Position numbers and translations under genes: made by a program. Positions 5,540 to 41,879 of a stretch of 64,000 nucleotides of DNA are shown one piece after another; position 1 is the first letter of the stretch, and each line of letters opens with the position of its first letter. The notes beneath the pieces were generated by a model that made no database searches, was not told where the DNA came from, and saw nothing but the letters and a program-made list of their open reading frames with translations. The DNA comes from a virus. The stretch lies in the UHGV virus genome UHGV-0236300. One strand, 5' to 3'.

Positions 5540-5938
5540 ATGATTACAGATGTGAAGATTATCCAATACCACCTAACCAAATTAGAAGATGCTGAAAAAG
5601 AGCTTGCAGAAGTTCTGAACAGTGGGTATACTTTACTGACATGCTCCTGCTCAGACACATACATTGTGTGGACACTTGCTAAGAAGGAAGAGCCTGCATG
5701 GATCTTGGTGCCAAACCCAGAGATCGCTAGTGAAGTTGATGGCTACTCCCAAGATAACGGCTTGCCAGAAGGTTGGGAAGTGTGGGAAGGTGGTGAAAAC
5801 CCTGCACCAGGTAAGTGGGTAAAATACAAACTACGTAGCGGTGCACAGTATGCTGACTACTCTGATGACCTAGACTGGAGTCACTCTTCACCAGGATCAT
5901 CTGCAAGTGCATATGATATTGTTGCTTTTCAGGAATAA
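5540..5938 (+). CDS. hypothetical protein
   Basis: ORF with SD GGAGG upstream; no motif. Confidence 0.5.
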   Translation: MITDVKIIQYHLTKLEDAEKELAEVLNSGYTLLTCSCSDTYIVWTLAKKEEPAWILVPNPEIASEVDGYSQDNGLPEGWEVWEGGENPAPGKWVKYKLRSGAQYADYSDDLDWSHSSPGSSASAYDIVAFQE

Positions 5939-6484: not shown

Positions 6485-7249
6485 TTGAAATTTATCTACA
6501 AAGAACACTACCACAAAGGTGTCGTGTGGAGTCTATTTGACGGGTCTGGTGGTGCAGTTATTGACTGGGCAAAAGCTGGGTACCTGTGCCTGTGCTTTAA
6601 TGCAGAAGGTGCTGACCACGGTAGTTATGCAGAGGTGATAACCGATCATCCTAACATTCACTATGTGGATTATTGGATTGATCCATGGTTCCCTCAAGAA
6701 ACTTTTTGCATGTATCCAGCTCCAGACTTTATTCTTGCATTTCCTCCGTGCACGCATTTAGCAGTATCCGGAGCTGCACACTTTAAGAAAAAGCTGGCTA
6801 AGGACCCACTGATCCAAATTAATGCTGTGAAAGATGCTCGGGTTGCAGAAGAGTTGGGAGAGATTTATGATTGCCCGTGGCATGTAGAGAACCCTGTAGG
6901 AGTTATGTCAACACTGTGGCGAAAACCTGATTACCGTTTTCATCCTTCGGATTATGGTGGGTATCTACCAGAGGACGATGTAAACCCATGGTTTCCTGAA
7001 TTTATAGCTCCACGTGATGCCTACCCAAAAATAACTTGCGGTTGGATAGGCAATGGATTTATAATCCCCGCCACAAAACCTGTCCCGCAAATAGTTGATG
7101 TGGTTAGTGGTTATTCCATGCAACACGCTAAGCTAGGTGGAAAGAGTGCAAGGACGAAGATGATTCGAAGCCTTACACCACGTGGCTGGGCAAGAGCTGT
7201 ATTCTTAGCAAACGAGCCTGCAGTAAGGAGAAGAATTAATGGGCAGTAA
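6485..7249 (+). CDS. C5-cytosine DNA methyltransferase-like protein (divergent, short)
   Basis: FDGSGG (motif I-like), FPPCTHLAVSG (PCQ-like motif IV with Thr for Gln), ENPVGV (ENV-like motif VI); start uncertain (TTG 6485 after SD AGGAGA; track start 6455 lies inside the terminator hairpin). Confidence 0.5.
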   Translation: MKFIYKEHYHKGVVWSLFDGSGGAVIDWAKAGYLCLCFNAEGADHGSYAEVITDHPNIHYVDYWIDPWFPQETFCMYPAPDFILAFPPCTHLAVSGAAHFKKKLAKDPLIQINAVKDARVAEELGEIYDCPWHVENPVGVMSTLWRKPDYRFHPSDYGGYLPEDDVNPWFPEFIAPRDAYPKITCGWIGNGFIIPATKPVPQIVDVVSGYSMQHAKLGGKSARTKMIRSLTPRGWARAVFLANEPAVRRRINGQ

Positions 7250-11799: not shown

Positions 11800-12641
11800 A
11801 AATAACATTGTGGCTTCGTGCAGTGATGCACGTCGAAAACCTCTTTAATTGACGGGAAGGCTAAGTTGACTTTTACGCCTAAACATGGTAAAAGCTCAAT
11901 ATGCTAATCCGCAGCGAAGACTAAAGGGGTGTAGTTAAAATGGCTAGATCAGTTGATTATCACGGATATACCGTGTTTGATGATGGAACAATACCTTTAT
12001 CGAAACGTGATCATACAACAATGTTTTGTTTTGATAATGGTAGAGGTTACCTTTGCGTAACCATGCTCATCGAGGGGAAGCAGTGCACAAAAGGTGTCCA
12101 CCACTTGGTTGCTGAATGCTTTGTACCGAACCCTGATCCTGAAAAGCTCACATGGGTGAACCATAAGGATGGAAATAAGTACAACAATGCATACTGGAAC
12201 TTGGAATGGACTACCCCTGGCGGAAATATCAAACACGCCTACGATAATGAACTCAGAGTAAGGCCAGTCGGTGAGTATAATGCCAACGCTGTACTGACCG
12301 AGGATGAGGTAACGGAGATTTGTGAACTGTTGCAGAGTGGTCTACGACAATGCGAGATTAGGGATCTTGGGTATCCTTATGAGACGGTTAGGGCCATAAA
12401 GCAAAGAAGACAGTGGAAACATATCTCTAAAAACTACACCTGGTAGTAACGTTCAGAGACTATCGAAAGCATAGCTCCAACATAGTTTGGTGTGAAGAAG
12501 CGAGTAGAGTAGGCCAGCAAGTGCGGTCGAAATGAGAGGTGCCTTGGTGACAAGGCAGTGAGATAGTCCGATCCATACAGGAAACCGTATGGCTGTGCAC
12601 GTAATGGTGCGGGGTAGCTTAACGACCTACCTGAACTATTG
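11800..12641 (+). mobile_element. group I intron interrupting the DNA polymerase gene at motif C, carrying an HNH homing endonuclease ORF
   Basis: Exon 1 ends in U, intron ends in G before GATGAG; IGS-like GUGG near 5' end; conserved P (AATTGACGGGAAGG ~11847), Q (AATCCGCAGC ~11906), R (GTTCAGAGACTA ~12451), S (AGATAGTCC ~12561) elements. Confidence 0.8.
11940..12446 (+). CDS. HNH homing endonuclease (intron-encoded)
   Basis: HNH motif VNHKDGNKYNN...NLEW; lies between intron elements Q and R. Confidence 0.8.
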   Translation: MARSVDYHGYTVFDDGTIPLSKRDHTTMFCFDNGRGYLCVTMLIEGKQCTKGVHHLVAECFVPNPDPEKLTWVNHKDGNKYNNAYWNLEWTTPGGNIKHAYDNELRVRPVGEYNANAVLTEDEVTEICELLQSGLRQCEIRDLGYPYETVRAIKQRRQWKHISKNYTW

Positions 12642-12995
12642 GATGAGTACCAACTTCAAGTGCCTGACACACCTAAGTATAAAACTGTATACACCTTCGA
12701 CACAATTGAAGAGCTGGAAACATTTAAAGCCCAACAAGAGGCTAAACTTCATGTGTTCGACGGTCATAAGTACAAAAAGGCACGCAAAGATGAGGACGGA
12801 AACGAAGTGGTTGACAAGGACGGAAATACGGTATACGATCCTATCTTGAACGATGACGGAAAGCTTGAACTTATCTGGAGCCCTGTGGGCGAAATGGTGG
12901 TGCATTGCTTCTGGCAGGCTTCTAAAATGATGGGCGTTCCGTTCCAGATCACAGGTGAATACTTGTGCGGTCGTAACTGGGGCGATTGTCACTAA
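12642..12995 (+). CDS. DNA polymerase, family A (T7 gp5-like), exon 2
   Basis: Begins DEYQLQV (completes HDE motif C); ends ...GRNWGDCH, matching the T7 DNA polymerase C-terminus ...GPNWAICH; in frame with exon 1 after removing the intron. Confidence 0.8.
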   Translation, partial: DEYQLQVPDTPKYKTVYTFDTIEELETFKAQQEAKLHVFDGHKYKKARKDEDGNEVVDKDGNTVYDPILNDDGKLELIWSPVGEMVVHCFWQASKMMGVPFQITGEYLCGRNWGDCH

Positions 12996-13046
12996 TGTAA
13001 ACTATCAACACACGGAAGTGTTGTTAGACAAAGAGAGGAGACTTTT

Positions 13047-13331
13047 ATGGTAGTAGAACCAACAAAAACATTTACCTCCATGACTATCCCTGTCATTATG
13101 CAGGTAGAGTGCGTTCAGGTGTCCCAAGTGTGGCCCGGTACTAAAATTCCAACAGGGCCTGATTTCTTTCAGGTCGGCAAAGTGTATAATGTCTGGAAGG
13201 CACCGGATTGTTACCCTTTCATTAAAGATGACCGTGGAATGTTATGGTATCTGGGGAATGATTTGACACTGCATCTTGGAAATGCTATTATTGCAGTGTT
13301 CCGGCTCAACAAGAAGGAGACAGATCAATGA
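13047..13331 (+). CDS. hypothetical protein
   Basis: ORF with SD GAGAGGAG upstream. Confidence 0.5.
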   Translation: MVVEPTKTFTSMTIPVIMQVECVQVSQVWPGTKIPTGPDFFQVGKVYNVWKAPDCYPFIKDDRGMLWYLGNDLTLHLGNAIIAVFRLNKKETDQ

Positions 13332-13555
13332 CAACTTTGGTTAAAGCTACGTTTGTAGAAGAAAAGATGACAGACCTGTCATTCTTTGAAGAAGGTAAGG
13401 TCTACAAGGTTTATTACGATAAGGATCGCAGGAACAATATGATCGAAGACGAGGACGGTATCTCCTGGTATATCTCCCATCTGTCAAATGGTGAGTATCA
13501 TATCTATGGGACCACCCTACTTGCCAAGTTTGCAGTTGTTGAAGAGGATCTATGA
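13328..13555 (+). CDS. hypothetical protein
   Basis: ORF with start overlapping the upstream stop (ATGA coupling). Confidence 0.5.
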   Translation: MTTLVKATFVEEKMTDLSFFEEGKVYKVYYDKDRRNNMIEDEDGISWYISHLSNGEYHIYGTTLLAKFAVVEEDL

Positions 13556-13746
13556 AAGTAAAGTATCTGGCTGAAGGTATGAGTAGGTATTTTACCCTTG
13601 GGGAAGAGTATTGGCCCTTCACGGAAAATGGAGATGTATACGTGAAGGATGACCAAGGTGTGCCGTGGTTTCTGCACCCTAATGGGTTGGGATATTCCAT
13701 CTACTGCGGTGCGGTGAACAACACAACCCTTGCAGAGTTTGTATAG
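13552..13746 (+). CDS. hypothetical protein
   Basis: ORF with ATGA overlap with the upstream gene. Confidence 0.45.
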   Translation: MKVKYLAEGMSRYFTLGEEYWPFTENGDVYVKDDQGVPWFLHPNGLGYSIYCGAVNNTTLAEFV

Positions 13747-13756
13747 AGGAGGTAGA

Positions 13757-14128
13757 ATGTTAGTAAAAGGTACCCACACAGTCAAGCAACGTATTGAAGT
13801 TGAGATTGATGATTGTGAGCTGAAGCATATTTTACGGTCATGCTCCAACGTTTTGCTCCTTAGTATTCTTCAGGAGCGAGCGGAGAACGAGTTCTTAAAT
13901 GCACTGGCAGGCCGTCCTGGGGACTTCTGTGTGCGTAAGCGTGAAGATCGTAAGTCATGGTTGTGGGAAATCGATGCCGACTGGGATTACCACAAAAATG
14001 AGGGTATAGATGAGCCTATTCGTGAATTGACAGACAAAGAGATTCAGATGTACAATGAAGTTTGTCATTGGGCAAAACGCCAACAAATTTACCTCGACCC
14101 TGTGTGGATGATTGAAAATAGTCATTGA
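13757..14128 (+). CDS. hypothetical protein
   Basis: Track ORF 13730..14128; ATG 13757 preceded by GGAGGTAG. Confidence 0.5.
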   Translation: MLVKGTHTVKQRIEVEIDDCELKHILRSCSNVLLLSILQERAENEFLNALAGRPGDFCVRKREDRKSWLWEIDADWDYHKNEGIDEPIRELTDKEIQMYNEVCHWAKRQQIYLDPVWMIENSH

Positions 14129-14153
14129 CAAGAGGTAAGATTGGATATAAGAT
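14125..14153 (+). promoter_or_regulatory. candidate sigma70 promoter (TTGACA-N17-TAAGAT)
   Basis: Consensus -35 with weak -10, upstream of gene 14205. Confidence 0.35.
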
Positions 14154-14204
14154 TCTTCACACAAACAGAGATTTGATTTTTAAATAATTGAGGAGACTGC
14201 TAAG

Positions 14205-14459
14205 ATGCAAATCACTTTGAAGCCAGAATGCGTTGCAAATGACCGAGCTTTTAAAGATTGCACACTCGGTGCAATTTATGAAGCAGAATTTTGTGAGAAC
14301 CCTCTGGTAAAAGCCCTTCTGGAAGAAGGAACCTATTTATCACAAGAAGAGCTTGATGAGTTGGAAAACTCGGCCCAGTGTCTTACCTTTAAAGATGATG
14401 AAGGGGATTCTGTCTGGTGCACTGTTAACGAAGTAGTTTTTGTAAAACCTGAGCATTAA
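14205..14459 (+). CDS. hypothetical protein
   Basis: ORF with SD GGAG upstream. Confidence 0.55.
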   Translation: MQITLKPECVANDRAFKDCTLGAIYEAEFCENPLVKALLEEGTYLSQEELDELENSAQCLTFKDDEGDSVWCTVNEVVFVKPEH

Positions 14460-15505: not shown

Positions 15506-15751
15506 ATGGCTGGAGTAGTTGCTCGCGCAGGACAGAAAGTACGTTGTGTTGAAGTTGGTTTCGGCGGCAAAGGTTGCCAGAACCTAACACAAGGTAAGGA
15601 ATACGCTGTTATTTCTGGTGGTGGAGATAAGAGCATTGTGTTCGATGATCATATTCTGGATGCTGAAAACTTTGAAATATTTGACGATGATGGCGATCCG
15701 ATCACCTGCCTGCTGAACGGAAGCTGGGGCACTTTCGAAGTAATTGGCTAA
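15506..15751 (+). CDS. hypothetical protein
   Basis: ORF with SD AGGAGA upstream. Confidence 0.5.
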   Translation: MAGVVARAGQKVRCVEVGFGGKGCQNLTQGKEYAVISGGGDKSIVFDDHILDAENFEIFDDDGDPITCLLNGSWGTFEVIG

Positions 15752-15833
15752 CAAATAGCTGTTGTAATTTACAGAAGGAGATGCTAAAATGGTGTCTCCT
15801 TTATGTTGTTCAAATAAAATCGGAGATTCCACA

Positions 15834-16199
15834 ATGGAACAAATGAACGATCAAGCGTCGGTTGCGATGAACGAGCAAGAACAACCTCAAGAATTTTTCT
15901 TAGGGTTAAGCAAAGATCAAGTGTCTCTTCTGCTGGTACTTTCTTCTTTCATGGGGAGACTTCAGGAGCTCACACAACAACCAGAGGCTGAACAGTTATT
16001 CCAGGCTCTGCGAGAAGAAGAGAAATATCGTCGTTTGGATTATGCCTTAGGTTGGGTAGCTCAACAACGAGATATGCTAATGGCCCTTTCTGGGACGACG
16101 AGTTTTGCAATGGGCCTGTTAGCTCAAGTCCAGGACAAATTAATTCAAGCAGGGTTTGCACATACATCAACCACTAACGAAGAACAAGGAGATAAATAA
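15834..16199 (+). CDS. hypothetical protein
   Basis: Track ORF 15789..16199; ATG 15834 (MEQMNDQ) is the likelier start. Confidence 0.5.
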   Translation: MEQMNDQASVAMNEQEQPQEFFLGLSKDQVSLLLVLSSFMGRLQELTQQPEAEQLFQALREEEKYRRLDYALGWVAQQRDMLMALSGTTSFAMGLLAQVQDKLIQAGFAHTSTTNEEQGDK

Positions 16200-17425
16200 T
16201 GAGCGTTATCCAACAATTTGCTAACCCGATGAATCCGCGTGAAACTGTTTTACTGGCTCACGGTATGATTAAACGTGTCAGCATCAAGCCCATTAAAGGT
16301 GCTGATCCTACAACAGGTATTAAAACCACTGTGTGGCAAGGTAAGAAAATTGAATCCAGCCACACCATCTCTTTACTGATTTCTGAACTGGACTCCTCTG
16401 ATAACCTGCTCCAAGGTGGTGAAGAAGTTTGGATCAGCATGGGTGATAAGCTGCTTAAGCCTGGTCATCAAGACTCCGTCTCTGTTAAAATTGATGACAA
16501 GTGGGAAACAGTAACGCCAGGATGGATCGTAAATATCCCTTTAAAGGCAAATGAGCATAACGGTAAGACCTACTACAAAGGCTCACTGGCTAAAATGGTT
16601 AAGTTGGGGGCAGGAGAGGCTCCATCAGCTCCACAGCAACAAAAACAGCAACAAGGCACACAATCACAAGGCCAGAAGCAGAAACCTCAGCAGAATGCCA
16701 ATCAGGACGTTTTACGCATCTATGGTGATGTGACTCAGATTGTTGGTAACGTGGTTACTGTCAATGACCACAAGATTGGCGAAGGTGCTATGGTTGTCTC
16801 CGATGAGCAGCTTAAAGACCTGGTGGTTGGCGGTCGTGTTGCAGCTATTGTTGACAAAGACACCGGGAATATTATCAGCGGCTTCAAGGCCTACCCGCCT
16901 AAAGCAGAGAACGGTACACAAGGTTCTGGTGGTAAGCGTAAATCCTCTTACGACCCCATCGGTGTAGAGACAGGGCACAGTATCAATGCATTGCAGATCA
17001 TCCTGGATCGCGGGTTTAAGATTGACAGCCCTTTAGATGTGGCTAAAACACTGCACGTGGTCACCATCGAGCTTAAGAAAGAGTACGCTCAAGCCACTAA
17101 CCGAACTGAAGATGAAGTAGGTGCCAGTGTTGGTAATGCGGTATTGAACGCTTGTCGCCGTATTGACAAGAAAACGAAAGTTGATGATTTTGCAGTAGCA
17201 ATTACTGCAGAGGCAAAAGATGTCTTGACTAATCTTGCTGAACCGTTGTATGATTGGATCAAGAACGGTGCTGGAGCCACTGACCATCAAGAGCCTCAAG
17301 CTGCCAAACAGGAAGCCGCCCCACAGCAAAACACTGTAGACGCTCCTCCTGTAGATGATGCGGAAGACGACCCGATGGATCAGAATCCGGCACAGTACGC
17401 CTTTGATGATGACATACCTTTTTAA
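16199..17425 (+). CDS. putative ssDNA-binding protein with host-SSB-like acidic C-terminal tip
   Basis: Q/G-rich linker then C-terminus ...AFDDDIPF, almost identical to the E. coli SSB tip DFDDDIPF; an N-terminal OB fold is not verifiable by eye. Confidence 0.5.
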   Translation: MSVIQQFANPMNPRETVLLAHGMIKRVSIKPIKGADPTTGIKTTVWQGKKIESSHTISLLISELDSSDNLLQGGEEVWISMGDKLLKPGHQDSVSVKIDDKWETVTPGWIVNIPLKANEHNGKTYYKGSLAKMVKLGAGEAPSAPQQQKQQQGTQSQGQKQKPQQNANQDVLRIYGDVTQIVGNVVTVNDHKIGEGAMVVSDEQLKDLVVGGRVAAIVDKDTGNIISGFKAYPPKAENGTQGSGGKRKSSYDPIGVETGHSINALQIILDRGFKIDSPLDVAKTLHVVTIELKKEYAQATNRTEDEVGASVGNAVLNACRRIDKKTKVDDFAVAITAEAKDVLTNLAEPLYDWIKNGAGATDHQEPQAAKQEAAPQQNTVDAPPVDDAEDDPMDQNPAQYAFDDDIPF

Positions 17426-20963: not shown

Positions 20964-21274
20964 TACTTGAAAATCCCTGGCACATCAAGTATAAGGAGGA
21001 TTTCTAAAATGGACTTCCTCCTTTTGATATTTTACCTGGCCGGATATTTTAAAATTCTTAGAAAATCAGAAAATGGATCGAAAACTAAAATGGATTTTTC
21101 AAGACAGGCGCGATAAGATGTGCTGCTCATTCTATCGTTCGCACCGTACTTTAAGTTACTATTCCAGATTTTCCGCACATACTCTCACCCTTCTACCAGA
21201 ACTTTCCCAGCTTACCTTTGACCCTTTATAACAATAAACCCATTATTCTCAGTAGGTTTTGATACATCTCTCTC

Positions 21275-21440
21275 AGTACTCGATCTGTTTTTCGTTTCAA
21301 AGATTGAATTTTCTGAAAATTTTTCTCGATAAATTTCTTAGTACTCGATCTGTTTTTCGTTTTCTGAATCAGATTTTCTGGAAATCGTTCCGGAGCTCGA
21401 CCTGAAATTTTTGGGGACGAAATCGATTTTTCGTTTTCGG
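21275..21440. repeat. AT-rich tandem repeats (about 65-bp period; core TCGATCTGTTTTTCGTTT)
   Basis: AGTACTCGATCTGTTTTTCGTTT at ~21275 and ~21340, degenerate third copy ~21420; iteron-like. Confidence 0.6.
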
Positions 21441-21554
21441 AAATGGATTTTTAAAATTTGTATATGGAAATACTTAAGGAGGTATTATTTTATATAGAAT
21501 TGTCACGGTAGGTAATTAGCATGCTAACTAAATTTATGAAATGCGAAAAGTTCT

Positions 21555-21780
21555 CATTTAGAATTTTGAATGATAATCATTCTCGTTTGCAGAATAACGG
21601 GCACCCCCGGTGATTGTCTCCCGGCCCCTGTTGCCCCGGCTTGTTATTATAGTATCACACAGGACAAAGAAAGCAAGGATTTTTTGCATAAATTTTTAAA
21701 TGATAATGATAACCGTTCTCATTTTATGCAGCGCCCATCCCCGGTGGTTGTCTCCCCCGTCACCGGTGCCTGCCGTCCTT
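21555..21780. repeat. pair of GC-rich ~90-bp direct repeats in an AT-rich, ORF-poor region
   Basis: AATGATAAT...CCCCGGTGATTGTCTCCCGGCCCC versus AATGATAATGATAA...CCCCGGTGGTTGTCTCCCCCGTCACCGG; ACCTGGCGGGGCC also recurs at ~21800 and ~21862. Confidence 0.55.
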
Positions 21781-21941
21781 TCGATAGGTATATTGTGCCA
21801 CCTGGCGGGGCCGCTGTCAACACTTTTCAAAAAAATTCTAACCTGATGCGCTAACCGTTGCAACCTGGCGGGGCCAGCCTGGCAGGGCTATGCTATAGGG
21901 TAGGCAACAACTGAAGAGGAGGTACAAAAATAAAAGGTAAT

Positions 21942-22103
21942 ATGATCCCTGGAAATGTAGCGATTAATGACGCTGAGGCTATCGCCCTGGTTGAAAAGGC
22001 TATGGCGGGAGCGTTGGAACATAAAGAAGAGTACGAAAAAATGATGGTTAACCTGGCAGGGGCGGCGGCTGGAGAATTCTGCCCAAAAAATAATTCTAAC
22101 TAA
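21942..22103 (+). CDS. small hypothetical protein (53 aa)
   Basis: ORF below the track cut-off (MIPGNVAINDAEAIALVEKAMAG...); weak SD. Confidence 0.3.
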   Translation: MIPGNVAINDAEAIALVEKAMAGALEHKEEYEKMMVNLAGAAAGEFCPKNNSN

Positions 22104-22106
22104 TGG

Positions 22107-22134
22107 TTGACAGCTCGGATAGTTCTGTTATTCT
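22107..22134 (+). promoter_or_regulatory. candidate sigma70 promoter (TTGACA-N16-TATTCT)
   Basis: Consensus -35 with moderate -10, upstream of gene 22187. Confidence 0.4.
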
Positions 22135-22186
22135 TATCCTCGCAAGGTGAACAACACCACACTAATTAACAGAGAGGATAAAAATC

Positions 22187-22384
22187 ATGAACGCCTACGG
22201 AATTAAAGTACGTCGCAACACTCGCCAGGCCGTCACCGATCAAATGATTTGCCAGGTGGACGTAACCATCAACAACGGGCAAGGCCTTTATAAATTCCGT
22301 CGCGGTCAGAGCTACACCCGGCAACAGCTTAATCGTTGCGCCCTGACAAAAGGCCAGATCAACCACTGGTTTAATAAAAAATAA
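22187..22384 (+). CDS. hypothetical small basic protein
   Basis: ORF with SD GAGAGGA upstream. Confidence 0.55.
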   Translation: MNAYGIKVRRNTRQAVTDQMICQVDVTINNGQGLYKFRRGQSYTRQQLNRCALTKGQINHWFNKK

Positions 22385-22387
22385 GTA

Positions 22388-22416
22388 TTGACATACAGTC
22401 TGACACCAAATACACT
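22388..22416 (+). promoter_or_regulatory. candidate sigma70 promoter (TTGACA-N17-TACACT)
   Basis: Consensus -35, upstream of gene 22449. Confidence 0.45.
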
Positions 22417-22448
22417 AAAAGCACAAAAGACACTAAGAGGATAAAATC

Positions 22449-22847
22449 ATGAAAACCACTACCTTTAATTTTGATAATGCGGACTTTTCTTTTTCTGATG
22501 TCAAGAACTGCCGCCGTGATCGTGGATTTTACAAGGCCTATAATCTGGTGGGCCTGGACGATGACAATAATTTGCACGAAGTAGCTGAGATCCGGTATTA
22601 TGCCGCCGCCAGCGGGAACACTCAATACTGCGTTTTTTGGATTCACGACAACAAGAACAATAAGTACGGTTATACTGGCGGGAAGGCGAGCGGTCACGGT
22701 TACGATAAAGCTAATGCAGCACTTGAGAGCGCATTAAATGCTATGGGGATCACTGCCAACGGCTGGATCTATGAAGAAGAGTTTTTGTCGGCACTTGCTA
22801 ACCACCTGGGCTATAAAAAGCACATTGTAACATGCGCCCACGAATAA
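22449..22847 (+). CDS. hypothetical protein
   Basis: ORF with SD AAGAGGA upstream. Confidence 0.6.
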   Translation: MKTTTFNFDNADFSFSDVKNCRRDRGFYKAYNLVGLDDDNNLHEVAEIRYYAAASGNTQYCVFWIHDNKNNKYGYTGGKASGHGYDKANAALESALNAMGITANGWIYEEEFLSALANHLGYKKHIVTCAHE

Positions 22848-22853
22848 AAATTG

Positions 22854-22881
22854 TTGACACGCTGCAAAATTCAAGTAAACT
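22854..22881 (+). promoter_or_regulatory. candidate sigma70 promoter (TTGACA-N16-TAAACT) followed by a 5'-UTR hairpin
   Basis: Consensus -35; hairpin GGCGGGAA-TGT-TTCCCGCC at ~22892-22910 before gene 22930. Confidence 0.45.
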
Positions 22882-22929
22882 AATCACAAAAGGCGGGAAT
22901 GTTTCCCGCCAACACAAAGGAAAAAGATC

Positions 22930-23334
22930 ATGAATAAGAACGTACGCCGCATCATGAATGAACTGGCAAACGATGAAAAAATTATTGATATGCATTTGGT
23001 GAACATTTGCCGCCGTTGTGTAACATATAACAACCGCGCCGCAAAAGCGCGTGAGATGAACGCAAAAGGCACCTTAAAGCCCTTCCAGGTGGTGGTAAAG
23101 GCCATCAAAGATGTAACTAATACGGCAAACCAGGTACAGGGGAACACCAACGAGAGTACCGATATTGATCCGGCTTACATCATGAAACGGATCCGGACCT
23201 GCAAGAACAAAGAGCAAGTGTATAACGTCATAGACTGGTTGGATTCTATGGGCGACGTGGTGTACAATAGGTTTTCTGCAGCTATCGAGATCCAGCTTGA
23301 CAGGTTGGACGGGAAAGTACTGAAAACTTATTAA
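22930..23334 (+). CDS. hypothetical protein
   Basis: ORF with SD AAGGAAAAAG upstream. Confidence 0.6.
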   Translation: MNKNVRRIMNELANDEKIIDMHLVNICRRCVTYNNRAAKAREMNAKGTLKPFQVVVKAIKDVTNTANQVQGNTNESTDIDPAYIMKRIRTCKNKEQVYNVIDWLDSMGDVVYNRFSAAIEIQLDRLDGKVLKTY

Positions 23335-23382
23335 GTTTATTTTTAGATGGCCTTGACTCCAGGGCCATCAATAAAGTAAACT
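23335..23382. repeat. repeated intergenic element, copy 1 (T-tract + palindrome ATGGCC-TTGACTCCAG-GGCCAT + TAAACT)
   Basis: Near-identical to 23955-24003; embeds a TTGACT-N18-TAAACT promoter-like arrangement. Confidence 0.6.
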
Positions 23383-23414
23383 AGTCTCAACTAAGCGAAA
23401 AAGGGGGCTTTAAG

Positions 23415-23534
23415 ATGAGCACTACACGCCAATACACAAAGGTAACTATTATCGTTTGCGTTGTCGGTTACATCCTGGCGCAAATGTTAATGAGTAGCGC
23501 CAACAGTTTTGCAAAATTTTTCTTAAATTTTTAA
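23415..23534 (+). CDS. small putative membrane protein (39 aa)
   Basis: ORF below the track cut-off; SD AAAGGGGG; hydrophobic core VTIIVCVVGYILAQMLM. Confidence 0.35.
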   Translation: MSTTRQYTKVTIIVCVVGYILAQMLMSSANSFAKFFLNF

Positions 23535-23562
23535 TTGACAAGCTAACCCAAATCAGTATACT
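23535..23562 (+). promoter_or_regulatory. sigma70 promoter (TTGACA-N16-TATACT) followed by a 5'-UTR hairpin
   Basis: Consensus hexamers; CGGGAA-AAC-TTCCC hairpin ~23575-23588; upstream of gene 23614. Confidence 0.55.
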
Positions 23563-23613
23563 TAAGCACGTAAACGGGAAAACTTCCCAGAACACACAAA
23601 AGGAGAAAACACC

Positions 23614-23946
23614 ATGACTACTATGACCGCCGCAGAAAAAGCTATTCAGGTTGCCGCACTGAAAAAACAGATCGCAGACCTTGAGAACAAGATCGATAAC
23701 TTTGAAATCGACGAGGACAAGTACGACGAAAACTATGATGAATGGTTAGACGAGGTCTACGGCGAAATCATGATCGGAAACATTTCTTTTCTTCCGTCGC
23801 GTATCCTCAAGGAGCTAGATCCTATCGCTTACCGCTGCGGATTTAGCGACTACATCGACAGCCTGGATATTGAGGACGATGAAGAGTACCAAGAATTGCA
23901 AACAGAGTTGGAAGAAGCAAAAGAAGAGCTTGCAGAACTGGAATAA
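23614..23946 (+). CDS. hypothetical acidic protein
   Basis: ORF with SD AAAGGAGAAAA upstream; highly acidic C-terminal half. Confidence 0.6.
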   Translation: MTTMTAAEKAIQVAALKKQIADLENKIDNFEIDEDKYDENYDEWLDEVYGEIMIGNISFLPSRILKELDPIAYRCGFSDYIDSLDIEDDEEYQELQTELEEAKEELAELE

Positions 23947-23954
23947 AACGAGTA

Positions 23955-24003
23955 AATTTATTTTTAGATGGCCTTGACTCCAGGGCCATCAATAAAGTAA
24001 ACT
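23955..24003. repeat. repeated intergenic element, copy 2
   Basis: Same T-tract + ATGGCC...GGCCAT palindrome + TAAACT as at 23335. Confidence 0.6.
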
Positions 24004-24041
24004 TTACACTGTTAACACTGAACTAATGAGGAGTTAAAACC

Positions 24042-24287
24042 ATGGCAGCACTAATCACCAAATATTATGCGCCTACCAACACCAAAAGCGCCCGTATCAT
24101 GGTAAAAGGCTTCGGACGTAAAAAGGTCTACACCTGGGATTATGCCTTAGATATGGAAGACAACTACACCAACGCAATGACCGATTTTATTAATGATCTG
24201 AATAAACAGATCTTAACCGACTACAAAGTGACCGATATTGCCTACGTCGGGGAAGGCGGGATCTGTTTTGTGGGCATTGTGAAATAG
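24042..24287 (+). CDS. hypothetical protein
   Basis: ORF with SD GAGGAG upstream. Confidence 0.55.
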   Translation: MAALITKYYAPTNTKSARIMVKGFGRKKVYTWDYALDMEDNYTNAMTDFINDLNKQILTDYKVTDIAYVGEGGICFVGIVK

Positions 24288-24337
24288 TTATTTTTTCGGT
24301 GGTCCTGGCTGCAGGGCCATCTATAAAGATAATTTAT
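24288..24337. repeat. repeated intergenic element, copy 3 (degenerate)
   Basis: T-tract + GGTCCTGGCTGCAGGGCCAT + TATAAAG; diverged relative of the elements at 23335 and 23955. Confidence 0.45.
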
Positions 24338-24362
24338 TAACACCATGAAAGGAGAAAGTAAC

Positions 24363-24716
24363 ATGATCAGCGGTGCAAGTTTTATCATTGGCGCTATTGC
24401 TACGGCTTTAATTGTAAACAAGATCCAGGATAAAAAGGAAAGAGGAAGCACCGCCCTTGCAGAATATCCATTTTGGGCATTCAACGATAACGAAGATTAT
24501 ATTATAAAGTATAAAAATAAAGAAGGTGACCAAGTAACACCGCGACCGATCCCGGCTTACAAGATGCAGGAAACACTATACCGCCTGGAGGCGGGGGGCG
24601 CAAAAATTGTGGACTTTTGGGGATACGATCACACAGATCAGGAAGTTATAAAGCGCCGTATCCGGGCTATTCAGGCCAATATTGAAGTTAGCAAGGGGGG
24701 AATATATGAAGATTAA
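24363..24716 (+). CDS. hypothetical protein with N-terminal transmembrane anchor
   Basis: Track ORF 24345..24716; ATG 24363 after SD AAAGGAGAAAG; N-terminal ISGASFIIGAIATALIV. Confidence 0.55.
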   Translation: MISGASFIIGAIATALIVNKIQDKKERGSTALAEYPFWAFNDNEDYIIKYKNKEGDQVTPRPIPAYKMQETLYRLEAGGAKIVDFWGYDHTDQEVIKRRIRAIQANIEVSKGGIYED

Positions 24717-24903
24717 TTTTGAGAAGATTGTAAAGCGATCTCATGATTCCGAAGAGTTGCCGGAACGCCGCCAGCGTAACAATAAACTGAATAAGCCAAA
24801 AAGATTTGGAAAGATCTGGCGAAATCATTATGATCGTAAATTGCCTGGCCTACTTTTGGAACGTGAACGACAGGCAGAACGATACCGCCATAAAGACAAA
24901 TAA
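24706..24903 (+). CDS. hypothetical small basic protein
   Basis: Track ORF 24682..24903; ATG 24706 after a G-rich SD; Arg/Lys-rich. Confidence 0.5.
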   Translation: MKINFEKIVKRSHDSEELPERRQRNNKLNKPKRFGKIWRNHYDRKLPGLLLERERQAERYRHKDK

Positions 24904-24910
24904 CAACCAA

Positions 24911-24940
24911 CGCCCCGCCATTGTGCGGGGCTTTTTATTT
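24911..24940 (+). terminator. rho-independent terminator
   Basis: GCCCCGC-CATTGT-GCGGGGC hairpin followed by TTTTTATTT. Confidence 0.7.
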
Positions 24941-25083
24941 CTATTCTACGAATAGCGCCCCTGGTTGGCCCTGTAAGCGCCAAAAAGGCCCCCACCTATG
25001 CAATCGCCCCTTTAACCTGAAAACATCGCCCAGGGCCGTTTTATGGCGTTAAAAATATTATTGGCAGTGATTTTATTTAAAGC

Positions 25084-25111
25084 TTGACATCTTAAACAGG
25101 TTAGCTATACT
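25084..25111 (+). promoter_or_regulatory. sigma70 promoter (TTGACA-N16-TATACT)
   Basis: Consensus hexamers upstream of gene 25144. Confidence 0.55.
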
Positions 25112-25143
25112 AACCACATCAAAGAGAGAAAGGAGTAAACGCC

Positions 25144-25404
25144 ATGCGTAAATTAAAAAATTTTGATAAAGTTGATGTTATCCTGAATAATTTTTACTAC
25201 TGCAACAACAAGGCCATTTGGTGGCGTGATAGTTCCACCGATAAAGTCAAGGCGCGCTTTCTCCAGGGGCACTGGCAAGGCCGTCCAGTGATTAAAATCA
25301 TGGGGCAATTGGTAGCGTTTAAAAATTGCCGCCGTGTTGATGACGTTGAAGAGATTTTAAACATTTTGCGCCACAATAATTTAAAAAATAGTGTTGACAA
25401 GTAA
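25144..25404 (+). CDS. hypothetical protein
   Basis: ORF with SD AAAGGAG upstream. Confidence 0.55.
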   Translation: MRKLKNFDKVDVILNNFYYCNNKAIWWRDSSTDKVKARFLQGHWQGRPVIKIMGQLVAFKNCRRVDDVEEILNILRHNNLKNSVDK

Positions 25405-25421
25405 ATCTCGATAAGTATACT
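25394..25421 (+). promoter_or_regulatory. sigma70 promoter (TTGACA-N16-TATACT) followed by a 5'-UTR hairpin
   Basis: Consensus hexamers; CGGGAA-AAC-TTCCCG hairpin ~25434-25448; upstream of gene 25479. Confidence 0.55.
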
Positions 25422-25478
25422 TAAACACGTAAACGGGAAAACTTCCCGCCACTAACAAAGAAAATAGGAGAAAATATC

Positions 25479-26102
25479 ATGACCACCGTTAACATTACCA
25501 CAGGTTGCAATTTATCTTTCGACGTGCTGACCGACGAACAAAAAGAAAAAGCTATTGAAATGGTCCGCGAAAGAGAAGAACACAGCGGAGAGGATTTTTT
25601 CGCAGAAAGTGTAATTGAATATTATAAAGAACAAGTTTTTCCAGAGTACGGCCTTGAAGATACCGAAGTACATTGGTCCGGCTTTTGGTGCCAGGGTGAC
25701 GGCGCGTCAATCAGTGCTGAAAACGTGGATTTAGAAAAATTCTTGCGTAAAGTAAAGGCCCTGACCAAGTTCCGATCAATTCGTCACTTGTTCGGCACAA
25801 TGCACGATGGCGAGTTATCAGCCAGTATTGAACGCGACAAGTACAGCCATTACAGCCATGAAAACACTGTAAGCGGATACATTGATACCACCTGGCTAGA
25901 TCTGACCGCCAAACAAGAAAACAAAGTGGAAGACCTGGAAGAGCTGATCACCGAGACGGTACGGGAGCTATCCCGCAAGGTTTATGTAGACCTGGAGGAG
26001 TCCTATCTTGAACAGTTTACTACCGAAAACCTGATCGGCCTTATTGAAGCCAATGATTGGCGGTTTGATGTGGATGAATATGGTGAGATGAGTTTTTCAT
26101 AA
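25479..26102 (+). CDS. hypothetical protein
   Basis: ORF with SD AGGAGAAAA upstream; acidic; HWSGFWCQGDGA segment of unknown family. Confidence 0.6.
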   Translation: MTTVNITTGCNLSFDVLTDEQKEKAIEMVREREEHSGEDFFAESVIEYYKEQVFPEYGLEDTEVHWSGFWCQGDGASISAENVDLEKFLRKVKALTKFRSIRHLFGTMHDGELSASIERDKYSHYSHENTVSGYIDTTWLDLTAKQENKVEDLEELITETVRELSRKVYVDLEESYLEQFTTENLIGLIEANDWRFDVDEYGEMSFS

Positions 26103-26110
26103 ATAAAGTG

Positions 26111-26138
26111 TTGCAATAATCTAAAAACCTGCTATATT
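26111..26138 (+). promoter_or_regulatory. candidate sigma70 promoter (TTGCAA-N16-TATATT)
   Basis: Near-consensus hexamers upstream of gene 26158. Confidence 0.4.
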
Positions 26139-26157
26139 TAAAACTCAAGGGGGTGAG

Positions 26158-26457
26158 ATGACTTGCCTCCCACAAAACAAAGAGGAAAACATCATGAAAC
26201 GTCTTGACCAGCTCAAACTAGTTCAGTACATGGCTTACAGAATTCTTGAAGTCCAAAAAGGTAGCAAAAAAGAAGTTTGCGAGAAAGCGTACAAGATCTT
26301 TACTCGCAAAAAAGACGATTGGATGTTACGCCAGACCAAAAAAGCCGATATCTTGGGGTACCTGGAAGAAGAGATCCGGCTTGAAGAACAAGAAGAGATC
26401 CGCCGTAGTGAGGCAGATTATCAGGCAGCTTGGGAAAACTGGATGAGCAACAAATAA
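26158..26457 (+). CDS. hypothetical protein
   Basis: ORF with SD GGGGGTGAG upstream; alternative start at ATG 26194. Confidence 0.55.
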   Translation: MTCLPQNKEENIMKRLDQLKLVQYMAYRILEVQKGSKKEVCEKAYKIFTRKKDDWMLRQTKKADILGYLEEEIRLEEQEEIRRSEADYQAAWENWMSNK

Positions 26458-26523
26458 TACAACAGGTTGCATGGTCAGGGGCGATAAAGCCCCTTGATCA
26501 CATAAAAATTATGCTATCCCTTG

Positions 26524-26552
26524 TTGACAGGGATCGGCAGTTTTGCTATATT
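26524..26552 (+). promoter_or_regulatory. sigma70 promoter (TTGACA-N17-TATATT)
   Basis: Consensus -35 and near-consensus -10 upstream of gene 26602. Confidence 0.5.
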
Positions 26553-26601
26553 CTTTTTTGAAGGGAAGTTGTAAGAAAATTAACTAAGAGGTAAAAACAC
26601 C

Positions 26602-27021
26602 ATGAACATTAAATCTGATAATCCGGCATATAGCTTTGATAACGCTTTTTGTCACGGTCCGGCGGCGAAAGGATTCGAAATCGATGGTAAACTAATTATT
26701 GTCAATGTTGACGGGGAAGAGGTTGCAGTATATCCGGTGGCAGACGTTAAAAGCCGTCTACAATGCCGCATAGATGTTACCGCCTATCAGCTTGATCCGG
26801 TCCGGGTAGTTGCCCTGGTCCTGGAAGAAGAAATTAAAGCAATGCACCACAGCAACAAGTTTATTGGTGACGCTCAAGATAATATGCAGGTATGCCGCTA
26901 TAAAGTTAATGAAGTGCTTAAAGAGTACGGCTATAAGGATTTAATGATCAAGCGCGATGAAAAATTCCGCTACCGTAACGACCTGGCAAATCGGATTTTT
27001 GAAATATACGAATCATTATAA
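26602..27021 (+). CDS. hypothetical protein
   Basis: ORF with SD AAGAGGTAAAAA upstream; followed by a terminator. Confidence 0.6.
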   Translation: MNIKSDNPAYSFDNAFCHGPAAKGFEIDGKLIIVNVDGEEVAVYPVADVKSRLQCRIDVTAYQLDPVRVVALVLEEEIKAMHHSNKFIGDAQDNMQVCRYKVNEVLKEYGYKDLMIKRDEKFRYRNDLANRIFEIYESL

Positions 27022-41840: not shown

Positions 41841-41865
41841 ATCATAAAAGCCCTCCGAAGAGGGC
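41841..41865 (-). terminator. rho-independent terminator (minus strand)
   Basis: On the minus strand GCCCTC-TTCG-GAGGGC followed by TTTTATGAT, directly after the ClpP-like gene stop. Confidence 0.6.
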
Positions 41866-41879
41866 TTTAAGATTAATGT

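What the first reader, a model, noticed from the sequence alone, without database searches (positions are those of the whole stretch)
23335..24337. Repeated palindromic element placed immediately after three consecutive stop codons
A ~48-bp unit (T-tract, ATGGCC-TTGACTCCAG-GGCCAT palindrome, TAAACT) occurs at 23335 and 23955, with a diverged copy at 24288, each directly after a gene end. The T-tract precedes the hairpin, so it is not a canonical intrinsic terminator on either strand. It does embed a TTGACT-N18-TAAACT promoter-like arrangement with the palindrome over the -35. It is therefore a candidate promoter-operator module or RNA processing site that punctuates the cassettes.
Basis: seen in the sequence. 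Interest (0 to 1): 0.55.

Follow-up and report, generated by a model that had tools for sequence, protein, structure and literature searches.

The report
T7-type RNase III hairpins in promoter slots
The repeated "palindrome after stop codons" in this rV5-like coliphage is a conserved 49-nt mRNA hairpin that matches base for base the RNase III cutting signals between phage T7's early genes, overlaps a promoter-like sequence, and marks where small gene cassettes are lost or swapped between phages.

Summary
Three copies lie at 23334-23382, 23955-24003 and 24286-24334, each starting at a stop codon (0 expected by chance).

Across 31 distinct copies 99% of pairs hold, with compensatory changes and plus-strand-only G.U.

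A covariance model built only from T7's five early RNase III signals returns the three copies as its top three hits in the window (E 7e-5 to 3e-3). The internal loops equal those of T7 R1 and R0.3/R1.1.

Best reading: an RNase III processing and 3'-stabiliser signal on read-through early mRNA. The TTGACT-N18-TAAACT promoter reading stays plausible for copies 1 and 2, not copy 3. An operator is not supported.

The copies also bound a 621-bp cassette missing in some relatives. A promoter-gene-hairpin unit has moved into a phi92-like phage, as with T4-like PeSL shuffling.

No cleavage or initiation data exist. Known kinds of element, new phage group.

The parts
23334..23382 (+). Site 1 hairpin. 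Lower stem 23334-23343 / 23373-23382; internal loop UA 23344-23345 / AAU 23370-23372; upper stem 23346-23355 / 23360-23369; tetraloop ACUC 23356-23359. The first paired base is the last A of the stop codon TAA 23332-23334. Predicted single cut after 23372.
   Evidence: T7-derived model R2: 25.7 bits, E 7e-5
23955..24003 (+). Site 2 hairpin (same anatomy; AAU 23991-23993). It abuts the in-frame TAA 23953-23955. Column 7-58 is an A.C mismatch in this genome.
   Evidence: 20.5 bits, E 3e-3
24286..24334 (+). Site 3 hairpin, 73% identical in sequence but with the same structure. Internal loop UC 24296-24297 / UAU 24322-24324; tetraloop GCUG. It overlaps the stop codon TAG 24285-24287.
   Evidence: 23.5 bits, E 4e-4
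23353..23382 (+). Promoter-like hexamers inside site 1: TTGACT (23353-23358, upper stem plus loop), N18, TAAACT (23377-23382, lower-stem 3' arm). Site 2 has the same at 23974-24003.
   Evidence: predicted only
22930..23334 (+). Upstream cistron of site 1 (134 aa, PHROG 13245, unknown function), fed by the promoter TTGACA-N16-TAAACT at 22854-22881.
   Evidence: the rV5 paper lists this promoter as P194
23383..24003 (+). A 621-bp unit bounded by the direct copies 1 and 2: 39-aa ORF 23415-23534, strong promoter 23535-23562 with a 5'UTR hairpin, 110-aa ORF 23614-23946, and site 2. The unit is absent from ECP32, phiWec189 and IMG/VR locus L009. The sub-unit 23534-24001 is found in the phi92-like phage KKE7M.
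24042..24287 (+). 81-aa cistron between sites 2 and 3 (PHROG 3199, unknown function).
24345..24903 (+). Cistrons downstream of site 3: 123 aa (24345-24716) and a 65-aa T7 gp1.1-like ORF (24706-24903). The operon ends at a terminator-like hairpin at 24912-24931.

Best explanation
Each copy is a 49-nt module with two readings. On read-through early mRNA (plus strand), made by host RNA polymerase from the upstream TTGACA promoters, it folds into a two-turn bipartite hairpin that begins at the stop codon of the upstream cistron. The hairpin is collinear with the RNase III processing signals of phage T7. Host RNase III most likely makes a single cut on the 3' side of the internal loop (after AAU or UAU, i.e. 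after 23372, 23993 and 24324). The cut would leave the upper stem-loop as a protective 3' end on the upstream mRNA and release the downstream cistron as a separate RNA. As DNA, sites 1 and 2 (and site 4 of relatives) also carry TTGACT-N18-TAAAYT in the position where neighbouring genes have their own promoter, so they probably also start transcription of the downstream gene; site 3 probably does not. Because the module is repeated in direct orientation, recombination between copies, and between a copy and ordinary promoters, removes or transfers promoter-gene-hairpin cassettes. SHOWN: the repeats, the plus-strand-specific conserved structure with compensatory changes, the collinearity with T7 signals, the copy number (4 per FV3 genome), and the cassette absence and transfer. 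INFERRED: that the hairpin is transcribed, that RNase III cuts it and where, that the promoter fires, and that the cut stabilises the upstream mRNA.
For: Structure: all three copies fold alike on the plus strand (-25.0, -24.8 and -24.4 kcal/mol; z -6.2, -6.6 and -4.1). The minus strand gives -17.2 (site 1) and -10.4 (site 3), z -2.3 and -0.4. In 31 distinct copies from 13 sources the plus strand folds better in 31 of 31 (mean -22.6 vs -13.3). Covariation: 99.2% of cells are paired against 34-57% in the slid controls. Four lower-stem pairs show double changes with wobble intermediates (U-A>U.G>C-G; A-U>G.U>G-C; G-C/G.U/A-U). Four upper-stem pairs vary on one side only, through G.U. 0 of 500 shuffles reach the observed percentage paired or covariation score. 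RNAalifold recovers the same structure. T7 link: model R2, built only from T7 R0.3, R0.5, R1, R1.1 and R1.3, gives the three elements as the top three hits in an unfiltered search of the whole window. The hits are full length, ungapped and on the plus strand (E 7e-5, 4e-4, 3e-3). R2 also hits every copy in FV3, ECP32 and KKE7M and nothing above them. Internal loops: [UA/AAU] equals T7 R1 and [UC/UAU] equals T7 R0.3/R1.1. U-A then U.G directly under the loop-closing pair equals the R1.1 distal box, and site 3 has U-A then C-G as in T7 R0.5 (rules from PMC1540722). In T7 the stop codons of genes 0.4 and 0.7 likewise lie in or 3 nt before the R0.5 and R1 stems, and E. coli promoter C starts inside R1. 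Context: all genes are on the plus strand and there is no terminator between the upstream promoters and the hairpins. Promoter side: 11 intergenic gaps lie between 22107 and 26602; 8 hold TTGACA-type promoters and 3 hold the element. In KKE7M the element replaces the plain promoter TTGCAA-N16-TAAACT of the gp235 homologue, with the crossover in the shared ATAAAGTAAA, 11 nt upstream of that gene's 5'UTR hairpin. Mobility.
Against: There are no transcript-end, cleavage or promoter-activity data for any rV5-like phage. By the minimal-substrate rules, proximal-box positions 1 and 3 are U-A and G-C instead of the preferred G-C and A-U, and site 3 has G.U at position 2 and C-G at distal-box position 2. 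The reciprocal search (our model against T7) ranks R1, R1.1 and R0.5 first, but at non-significant E-values of 0.23 to 6.8. Model E-values are rough because calibration was short. There are only 4 copies per genome, all within 4.4 kb, so this is not a genome-wide processing strategy. The match of the internal-loop motifs was noticed after the fact. The T7 cut positions (R1 at 3138, R1.1 at 5887) are from my memory of Dunn & Studier 1983. The promoter match is 9 of 12 with an 18-bp spacer, a level common in this AT-rich DNA (67 found vs 35.5 expected). The curated rV5 promoter list omits it.
Confidence: 0.6

Rival explanations
1. The hairpin is a plain structural barrier or attenuator, without RNase III. 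It stops 3'-5' exonucleases after a downstream cut by another nuclease (as REP elements do), or it damps read-through as proposed for the stem-loops of T4-like PeSL modules.
For: The hairpin is very stable and sits right after stop codons inside operons. PeSL stem-loops overlapping promoters reduced downstream lacZ expression in RB49/phi1 (PMC2839356).
Against: The GC-rich upper stem alone would suffice as a barrier. Yet the weak AU lower stem is kept by compensatory changes, and the 2x3 internal loop keeps its size in 29 of the 31 distinct copies (the exceptions are one 2x4 variant and the decayed Gotham copy). That points to recognition of helix length and geometry. No U-tract follows, so intrinsic termination is unlikely. 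This reading does not explain the ungapped match to the T7 RNase III model or the identical internal loops.
Confidence: 0.2
2. It is only a sigma70 early promoter, with the palindrome acting as an operator for a dimeric phage or host protein.
For: TTGACT-N18-TAAACT with an upstream T-tract. The element occupies the promoter slot. PhagePromoter predictions lie over sites 2 and 4 in the Gotham record. It is positionally equivalent to a plain promoter in phi92-like phages. TTGAC, including the loop bases AC, is invariant at sites 1, 2 and 4.
Against: Site 3 has lost the -35 (CTGGYN) but keeps every pair. Compensatory double changes link the T-tract and the '-10'. All one-sided changes are G.U on the plus strand only, so the two half-sites differ, which a symmetric operator would not tolerate. 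The spacer is a suboptimal 18 bp.
Confidence: 0.12
3. It is a DNA-level element: a cruciform or single-strand DNA hairpin used for recombination, replication priming or nuclease targeting. The cassette polymorphism would then be its function rather than a by-product.
For: Copies bound a cassette that is absent in three relatives, and a cassette crossed subfamilies with a junction inside the element.
Against: The junctions are explained by ordinary homologous recombination between 48-nt direct repeats or 11-nt microhomology. Another deletion in the same region uses SD/ATG microhomology with no hairpin. The minus strand carries 2-4 A.C mismatches, so a cruciform would be disfavoured. No recombinase gene is adjacent.
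Confidence: 0.05

Closest known systems
RNase III processing signals of phage T7 early mRNA (R0.3, R0.5, R1, R1.1, R1.3)
   Same: Both are intercistronic hairpins on host-polymerase early transcripts of a coliphage. Both have a 9-10-bp upper stem with a 4-5-nt loop, a 2x3 internal loop and an 8-10-bp lower stem. The internal loops are identical ([UA/AAU] as in R1; [UC/UAU] as in R0.3 and R1.1). U-A/U.G lies under the loop as in R1.1. The stop codon of the upstream gene lies in or next to the lower stem (R0.5, R1). A host promoter overlaps R1. The alignment to the T7 model is ungapped over 47 nt.
   Different: The phage is an unrelated rV5-like myovirus. Sequence identity is only about 50%. The lower stem is almost pure A-U. 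The proximal box deviates from the R1.1 optimum. -35 and -10-like hexamers lie inside the hairpin. There are only 4 copies, clustered in an accessory-gene region. Cleavage is untested.
PeSL (promoter-early stem-loop) cassettes of T4-like phages RB49/phi1, PST, nt-1 (PMC2839356, PMC4122927)
   Same: Both are repeated intergenic modules in a plastic ORFan region. Both run from a stop codon in AT-rich DNA, through a sigma70-type hexamer pair and a stem-loop with G-T pairs that can overlap the -35, to the SD and start codon of the next gene. In both, recombination between copies deletes or swaps ORFan cassettes.
   Different: It is not a T4-like phage and not homologous in sequence. The stem-loop spans the whole promoter from the UP-like tract to the -10, is bipartite and looks like an RNase III signal. 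PeSL stem-loops are short polyG/polyC stems reported to act as terminators. The promoter match is weaker (9 of 12, N18). Mini-circles were not tested.
REP (repetitive extragenic palindromic) elements of E. coli
   Same: Both are repeated imperfect palindromes placed after stop codons inside operons and read as mRNA stem-loops that protect upstream RNA.
   Different: There is no sequence relation. REPs are GC-rich single stems present in hundreds of copies, and they are not RNase III-type two-turn helices.

Membership tests
T7-type RNase III processing signal | Hairpin with about two helical turns of dsRNA | tested here: met
   10 + 10 bp on the plus strand in all copies. The two-turn requirement is from PMC1540722.
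T7-type RNase III processing signal | Central internal loop that limits cleavage to one strand and leaves a 3' hairpin | tested here: met
   A 2x3 loop is kept in 29 of 31 distinct copies (exceptions: one 2x4 variant and the decayed Gotham copy). The motifs [UA/AAU] and [UC/UAU] are identical to T7 R1 and R0.3/R1.1. The role of such loops is from PMC1540722 and PMC3867540.
T7-type RNase III processing signal | Distal-box and proximal-box base-pair determinants (db UA/UG; pb1 GC, pb2 AU/UA, pb3 AU, pb4 not GC) | tested here: inconclusive
   db UA/UG is met at sites 1, 2 and 4. Site 3 has UA/CG, as does T7 R0.5. pb2 is A-U (met), and pb4 is an A.A or C.U mismatch (acceptable). pb1 is U-A and pb3 is G-C, both non-optimal. 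Site 3 has G.U at pb2.
T7-type RNase III processing signal | Scores as a member with a profile of sequence and structure built from the known T7 sites | tested here: met
   Model R2, built from T7 only: the three elements are hits 1-3 of the whole window (25.7, 23.5 and 20.5 bits; E 7e-5 to 3e-3). All copies in FV3, ECP32 and KKE7M are hit. The reciprocal search gives a consistent ranking but is not significant.
T7-type RNase III processing signal | Lies between cistrons of a polycistronic transcript made in an RNase III-containing host | tested here: met
   The sites lie between plus-strand ORFs, downstream of the predicted promoters at 22854 and 23535, and the first terminator-like site is at 24912. 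The host is E. coli. The transcription units are predicted, not measured.
T7-type RNase III processing signal | Cut by RNase III in vitro or in vivo | not testable with these tools
   No transcript-end or rnc-mutant data were found for Vequintavirus.
PeSL composite promoter/stem-loop module | Repeated intergenic motif in an ORFan-rich plastic region: stop codon in an AT-rich tract upstream, SD and start codon downstream | tested here: met
PeSL composite promoter/stem-loop module | Consensus sigma70 -35/-10 that acts as a strong early promoter | tested here: inconclusive
   9 of 12 match with an 18-bp spacer at sites 1 and 2, and about 3 of 6 in the -35 at site 3. Activity was not testable.
PeSL composite promoter/stem-loop module | Stable stem-loop within or overlapping the promoter | tested here: met
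PeSL composite promoter/stem-loop module | Recombination between copies creates insertions, deletions or replacements of flanked ORFans | tested here: met
   The 621-bp unit is absent in ECP32, phiWec189 and L009, each with a single hybrid copy. A cassette replacement is seen in KKE7M.
PeSL composite promoter/stem-loop module | Stem-loop acts as a terminator or attenuator; mini-circles form | not testable with these tools
   No U-tract follows the hairpin, so canonical termination is not predicted.
Intrinsic (rho-independent) terminator | GC-rich stem followed directly by a U-tract on the transcribed strand | tested here: not met
   The T-tract is 5' of the stem. The 3' side is AAUAAAGUAAACU on the plus strand and CUAAAAAUAAA on the minus strand. 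The terminator scan did not list it.

The most novel reading that the evidence does not exclude
The same 49 nt would be a portable two-level insulator. As DNA it is a sigma70 promoter. As RNA on read-through transcripts it is an RNase III site cut about 17 nt upstream of that promoter's own start. The downstream cistron would then get nearly the same 5' end whether it is initiated or processed, and the upstream cistron always gets a protective 3' hairpin. Such a module would make small accessory-gene cassettes expression-autonomous and therefore freely exchangeable between unrelated coliphage subfamilies. The near-collinearity with T7 signals would reflect shared descent of early-gene cassettes among coliphages (a T7 gp1.1-like gene lies in the same operon).
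Probability: 0.2. Interest if true: 0.65.

Novelty: new member of a known kind. Interest (0 to 1): 0.48.

Why it matters
RNase III punctuation of early mRNA is a textbook feature of T7-like podoviruses. I found no description of it for rV5-like or phi92-like myoviruses, which are widely used as therapeutic and biocontrol coliphages, and the curated rV5 regulatory list misses these sites. If confirmed, it would show that the T7 solution (a single cut in an internal loop that leaves a 3' hairpin) is reused, almost base for base in architecture, in an unrelated phage lineage. It would also tie an RNA-processing signal to the promoter-mediated cassette shuffling so far described only for T4-like phages. 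In practice it gives a compact, testable 49-nt part for separating cistrons in E. coli, and it marks likely breakpoints when comparing or engineering these phage genomes.

Tried and rejected
1. Terminator reading, rejected: there is no U-tract 3' of the stem on either strand.
2. Operator reading, rejected on covariation and strand asymmetry.
3. Rfam scan of 21000-27000 at E<=1: no family matched.
4. IMG/VR pattern scan with CAGGGCCATCNATAAAG: 18 loci, but only 3 were rV5-like (L006, L009, L010) and the rest were chance matches in unrelated contigs.
5. Looking for deeper orthologous sites through the flanking 110-aa and 81-aa proteins: the distant homologues sit in unrelated phages (Vibrio, Pseudomonas, Seuratvirus-like) with no shared synteny, so this was not pursued.
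6. Sliding 60-nt MFE scan of the whole window: 170 windows at <= -19 kcal/mol, mostly GC-rich coding sequence, so it did not discriminate.
7. Using 'a 5'UTR hairpin follows true promoters' as a promoter test: only 3 of 7 intergenic TTGACA promoters have one, so it does not discriminate.
8. The T7 records in the collection do not list RNase III sites as features. T7 site identity therefore rests on the R1.1 numbering in PMC1540722 fitting the extracted hairpin, on homology among the five intergenic hairpins, and on coordinates recalled from Dunn & Studier 1983.
9. Literature search found no transcriptomics for Vequintavirus and no PeSL report outside T4-like phages.
Full report
OBSERVATION. The window is an rV5-like coliphage (Vequintavirus). 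The 3-kb stretch around the finding is 97.4% identical to Escherichia phage B9-1 and about 95% identical to FV3 and rV5. The element exists as described. The core GATGGCCTTGACTCCAGGGCCATC occurs exactly twice, at 23346 and 23967, with 0 expected from shuffles. The repeat finder returns a 51-nt family with copies at 23332, 23953 (98%) and 24284 (73%). All genes here are small plus-strand ORFs. The hairpin starts on the last base or bases of a stop codon at sites 1 and 3. At site 2 it abuts an in-frame TAA that relatives use as the real stop; the window has a GAA>TAA change three codons earlier.

Folded as plus-strand RNA, each copy forms one and the same bipartite hairpin. The lower stem is 10 bp (AGUUUAUUUU / AAAGUAAACU). 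The internal loop is UA / AAU. The upper stem is 10 bp (GAUGGCCUUG / CAGGGCCAUC), closed by a tetraloop. Energies are -25.0, -24.8 and -24.4 kcal/mol, with z-scores of -6.2, -6.6 and -4.1 against dinucleotide shuffles. The 'T-tract' and the '-10 TAAACT' are therefore the two arms of the lower stem. The minus strand folds much worse (site 1: -17.2, z -2.3; site 3: -10.4, z -0.4).

CONSERVATION AND COVARIATION. I built a covariance model (R1) from the three copies and collected 41 copies, 31 of them distinct, from the window, nine annotated relatives and three IMG/VR loci.
- 99.2% of pair cells are standard pairs, against 34-57% when the partners are slid by 1-3 columns.
- Four lower-stem pairs show changes on both sides, with the wobble intermediates present (U-A > U.G > C-G; A-U > G.U > G-C; G-C / G.U / A-U; U-A <> A-U).
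- Four upper-stem pairs vary on one side only, always through G.U.
- 0 of 500 shuffles reach the observed pairing or covariation score.
- RNAalifold predicts the same structure by itself.
- The plus strand folds better than the minus strand in 31 of 31 distinct copies (mean -22.6 vs -13.3 kcal/mol).

G.U pairs become A.C mismatches on the other strand, so selection acts on the plus strand, which is the mRNA sense strand. This argues against a protein operator and against a cruciform. One copy (Gotham site 1) has a 5-nt deletion in the upper stem and looks decayed.

FAMILY SIZE. The window holds only these three copies. A scan of the complete FV3 genome (137 kb) finds exactly four, all within 4.4 kb of the early ORFan region. 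The fourth site lies in a 4.74-kb stretch that the window genome has lost. That deletion junction is a 21-bp SD/ATG microhomology at 26179-26199. The flanking genes all have unknown function, except a T7 gp1.1-like ORF at 24706-24903.

COMPARISON WITH T7 RNase III SIGNALS. Two helical turns interrupted by a central internal loop is the design of the five RNase III signals in T7 early mRNA. There the loop restricts cleavage to one strand and leaves a protective 3' hairpin (PMC1540722 and PMC3867540). I extracted and folded the five T7 sites from NC_001604.
- They have 9-10-bp upper stems (13 continuous bp in R1.3, where the internal loop is closed), 3-5-nt loops, and internal loops of [UA/AAU] (R1) and [UC/UAU] (R0.3, R1.1).
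- The window's sites 1 and 2 (and site 4 of relatives) have [UA/AAU], and site 3 has [UC/UAU]. These are the same two motifs.
- Under the loop-closing pair, sites 1, 2 and 4 have U-A then U.G, which is the canonical R1.1 distal box. Site 3 has U-A then C-G, as in T7 R0.5.
- Proximal-box position 2 is A-U, as preferred. Positions 1 and 3 are not optimal.
- In T7 the stop codon of gene 0.4 lies inside the R0.5 lower stem, and that of gene 0.7 lies 3 nt before R1. The minor E. coli promoter C starts inside R1. Stop-codon abutment and promoter overlap therefore both have precedents.

As an objective test I built a model (R2) from the five T7 sites alone and searched the whole window on both strands without filters. 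The three elements are hits 1, 2 and 3, full length, ungapped and on the plus strand (25.7, 23.5 and 20.5 bits; E 7e-5, 4e-4, 3e-3). The next hit is at E 0.03. R2 also finds every copy in FV3, ECP32 and KKE7M, and nothing above them. The reciprocal search (R1 against the T7 early region) ranks R1, R1.1 and R0.5 first, but not significantly. Rfam has no matching family.

THE PROMOTER QUESTION. Several points speak for a promoter.
- Between 22107 and 26602 every intergenic gap holds a promoter-like site. Eight are TTGACA-type and the other three are the elements.
- At sites 1, 2 and 4 TTGAC is invariant, including the two loop bases AC.
- In the phi92-like phage KKE7M the element sits exactly where relatives (Paula, PD114) have a plain promoter, TTGCAA-N16-TAAACT, 11 nt upstream of the 5'UTR hairpin of the gp235 homologue. 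The two share AATAAAGTAAA.

Other points speak against it as the conserved function.
- The match is 9 of 12 with an 18-bp spacer, a level reached 67 times in 16 kb against 35.5 expected.
- The rV5 paper's curated list includes the neighbouring promoters P192 and P194 but not this element.
- Site 3 keeps every base pair while its -35 is CTGGYN.

I conclude that a promoter at sites 1, 2 and 4 is plausible (about even odds). The hairpin is the feature under demonstrable selection.

CASSETTE MOBILITY. ECP32, phiWec189 and IMG/VR locus L009 lack the 621 bp between copies 1 and 2 (the 39-aa ORF, a strong promoter and the 110/113-aa ORF). Each carries one hybrid copy with a site-1 left flank and a site-2 right flank. 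KKE7M (Justusliebigvirus, a different subfamily) carries a 468-bp block 95-97% identical to the Vequintavirus promoter-gene-hairpin unit, in place of the resident gp234 homologue. The left crossover is inside a shared TTGACA promoter, and the right crossover is in the element's 3' arm and the resident -10. This is the behaviour described for PeSL modules of T4-like phages (PMC2839356, PMC4122927). I found no report of PeSLs outside T4-like phages.

MECHANISM, WITH STATUS. The following are shown: a repeated 49-nt unit, a plus-strand-specific conserved bipartite helix beginning at the stop codon, collinearity with T7 RNase III signals, four clustered copies per genome, and cassette loss and transfer at the copies. 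The following are inferred. The hairpin is transcribed as the 3' end of the upstream cistron, because there are promoters at 22854 and 23535 and no terminator before 24912. Host RNase III cuts once after the 3'-side AAU/UAU (after 23372, 23993, 24324; the T7 cut positions are recalled from Dunn & Studier 1983). The upstream mRNA then keeps a 3' hairpin and the downstream cistron is released. Sites 1, 2 and 4 also initiate transcription.

RIVALS.
- A plain exonuclease barrier or attenuator (0.2) does not explain why the weak AU lower stem and the loop geometry are kept, nor the T7-model hits.
- A promoter/operator alone (0.12) is contradicted by site 3 and by the covariation.
- A DNA-level recombination structure (0.05) is unnecessary, because ordinary repeat recombination explains the junctions and a nearby deletion uses microhomology without a hairpin.

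LIMITS. There are no experimental data. The model E-values are rough. The relatives are closely related, so the number of independent compensatory events is small (roughly three or four pathways). The internal-loop identity was noticed after the fact, although the R2 search that followed used all columns of the T7 alignment and did not depend on it.

Noticed in passing
window 21266-21451: Three to four direct repeats of about 47-55 nt (TCTCAGTACTCGATCTGTTTTTCGTTT...) spaced 65-74 nt apart, in a stretch without convincing ORFs. They may correspond to the 'non-coding' box drawn in the rV5 genome map. Function unknown.
   Followed up: no
window 22854-22910, 23535-23600, 25394-25459: Strong TTGACA-N16-TA(A/T)ACT promoters followed 10-13 nt later by a short GC hairpin (GGCGGGAATGTTTCCCGCC; GGGAAAACTTCCC), ahead of the SD. 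Two of them form a repeat family at 80% identity. They look like 5'-end stabilising stem-loops on primary transcripts. The same design occurs in phi92-like phages.
   Followed up: partly
window 26179-26199: The window genome lacks 4.74 kb (about 17 small genes and element site 4) that FV3 and rV5 carry. The junction is a 21-bp microhomology over the SD and ATG (AAAGAGG.AAA.ATCATGAAA).
   Followed up: yes
window 23944-23955: The 110-aa ORF ends at a TAA that is GAA in FV3 and KKE7M (113 aa). It is a premature stop three codons before the ancestral stop that abuts the hairpin.
   Followed up: yes
window 24706-24903: A 65-aa ORF matches Pfam PF08200 (phage T7 protein 1.1; E 2e-11). In T7, gene 1.1 directly follows the R1.1 RNase III site. 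Here the gene lies in the operon downstream of site 3.
   Followed up: partly
window 41841-41873 (minus strand): The fourth-best hit of the T7 RNase III model (17.4 bits, E 0.03) is AAAGCCCUCUUCGGAGGGCUUUUAUGAU. It looks like an intrinsic terminator but ends in the UUUAUGAU shared by the T7 sites.
   Followed up: no
L021 (KKE7M) 13531-14397 and 6758-7091 vs L019 (FV3) 15549-16556 and 12882-13215: Further mosaic blocks of 75-93% identity are shared between a Justusliebigvirus and Vequintaviruses in the early ORFan region. This points to repeated cassette exchange between the two subfamilies.
   Followed up: partly
search results: Seventeen GenBank records named 'Campylobacter phage' (host C. 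jejuni) are 91-100% identical to E. coli rV5-like phages over this region. The host labels look doubtful.
   Followed up: no
L031 (FV3) 12605-13425: FV3 ORF023 and ORF024 are annotated as similar to proteins of phages phi1 and RB49, the T4-like phages in which PeSL cassettes were defined. This suggests accessory-gene traffic between these groups.
   Followed up: no
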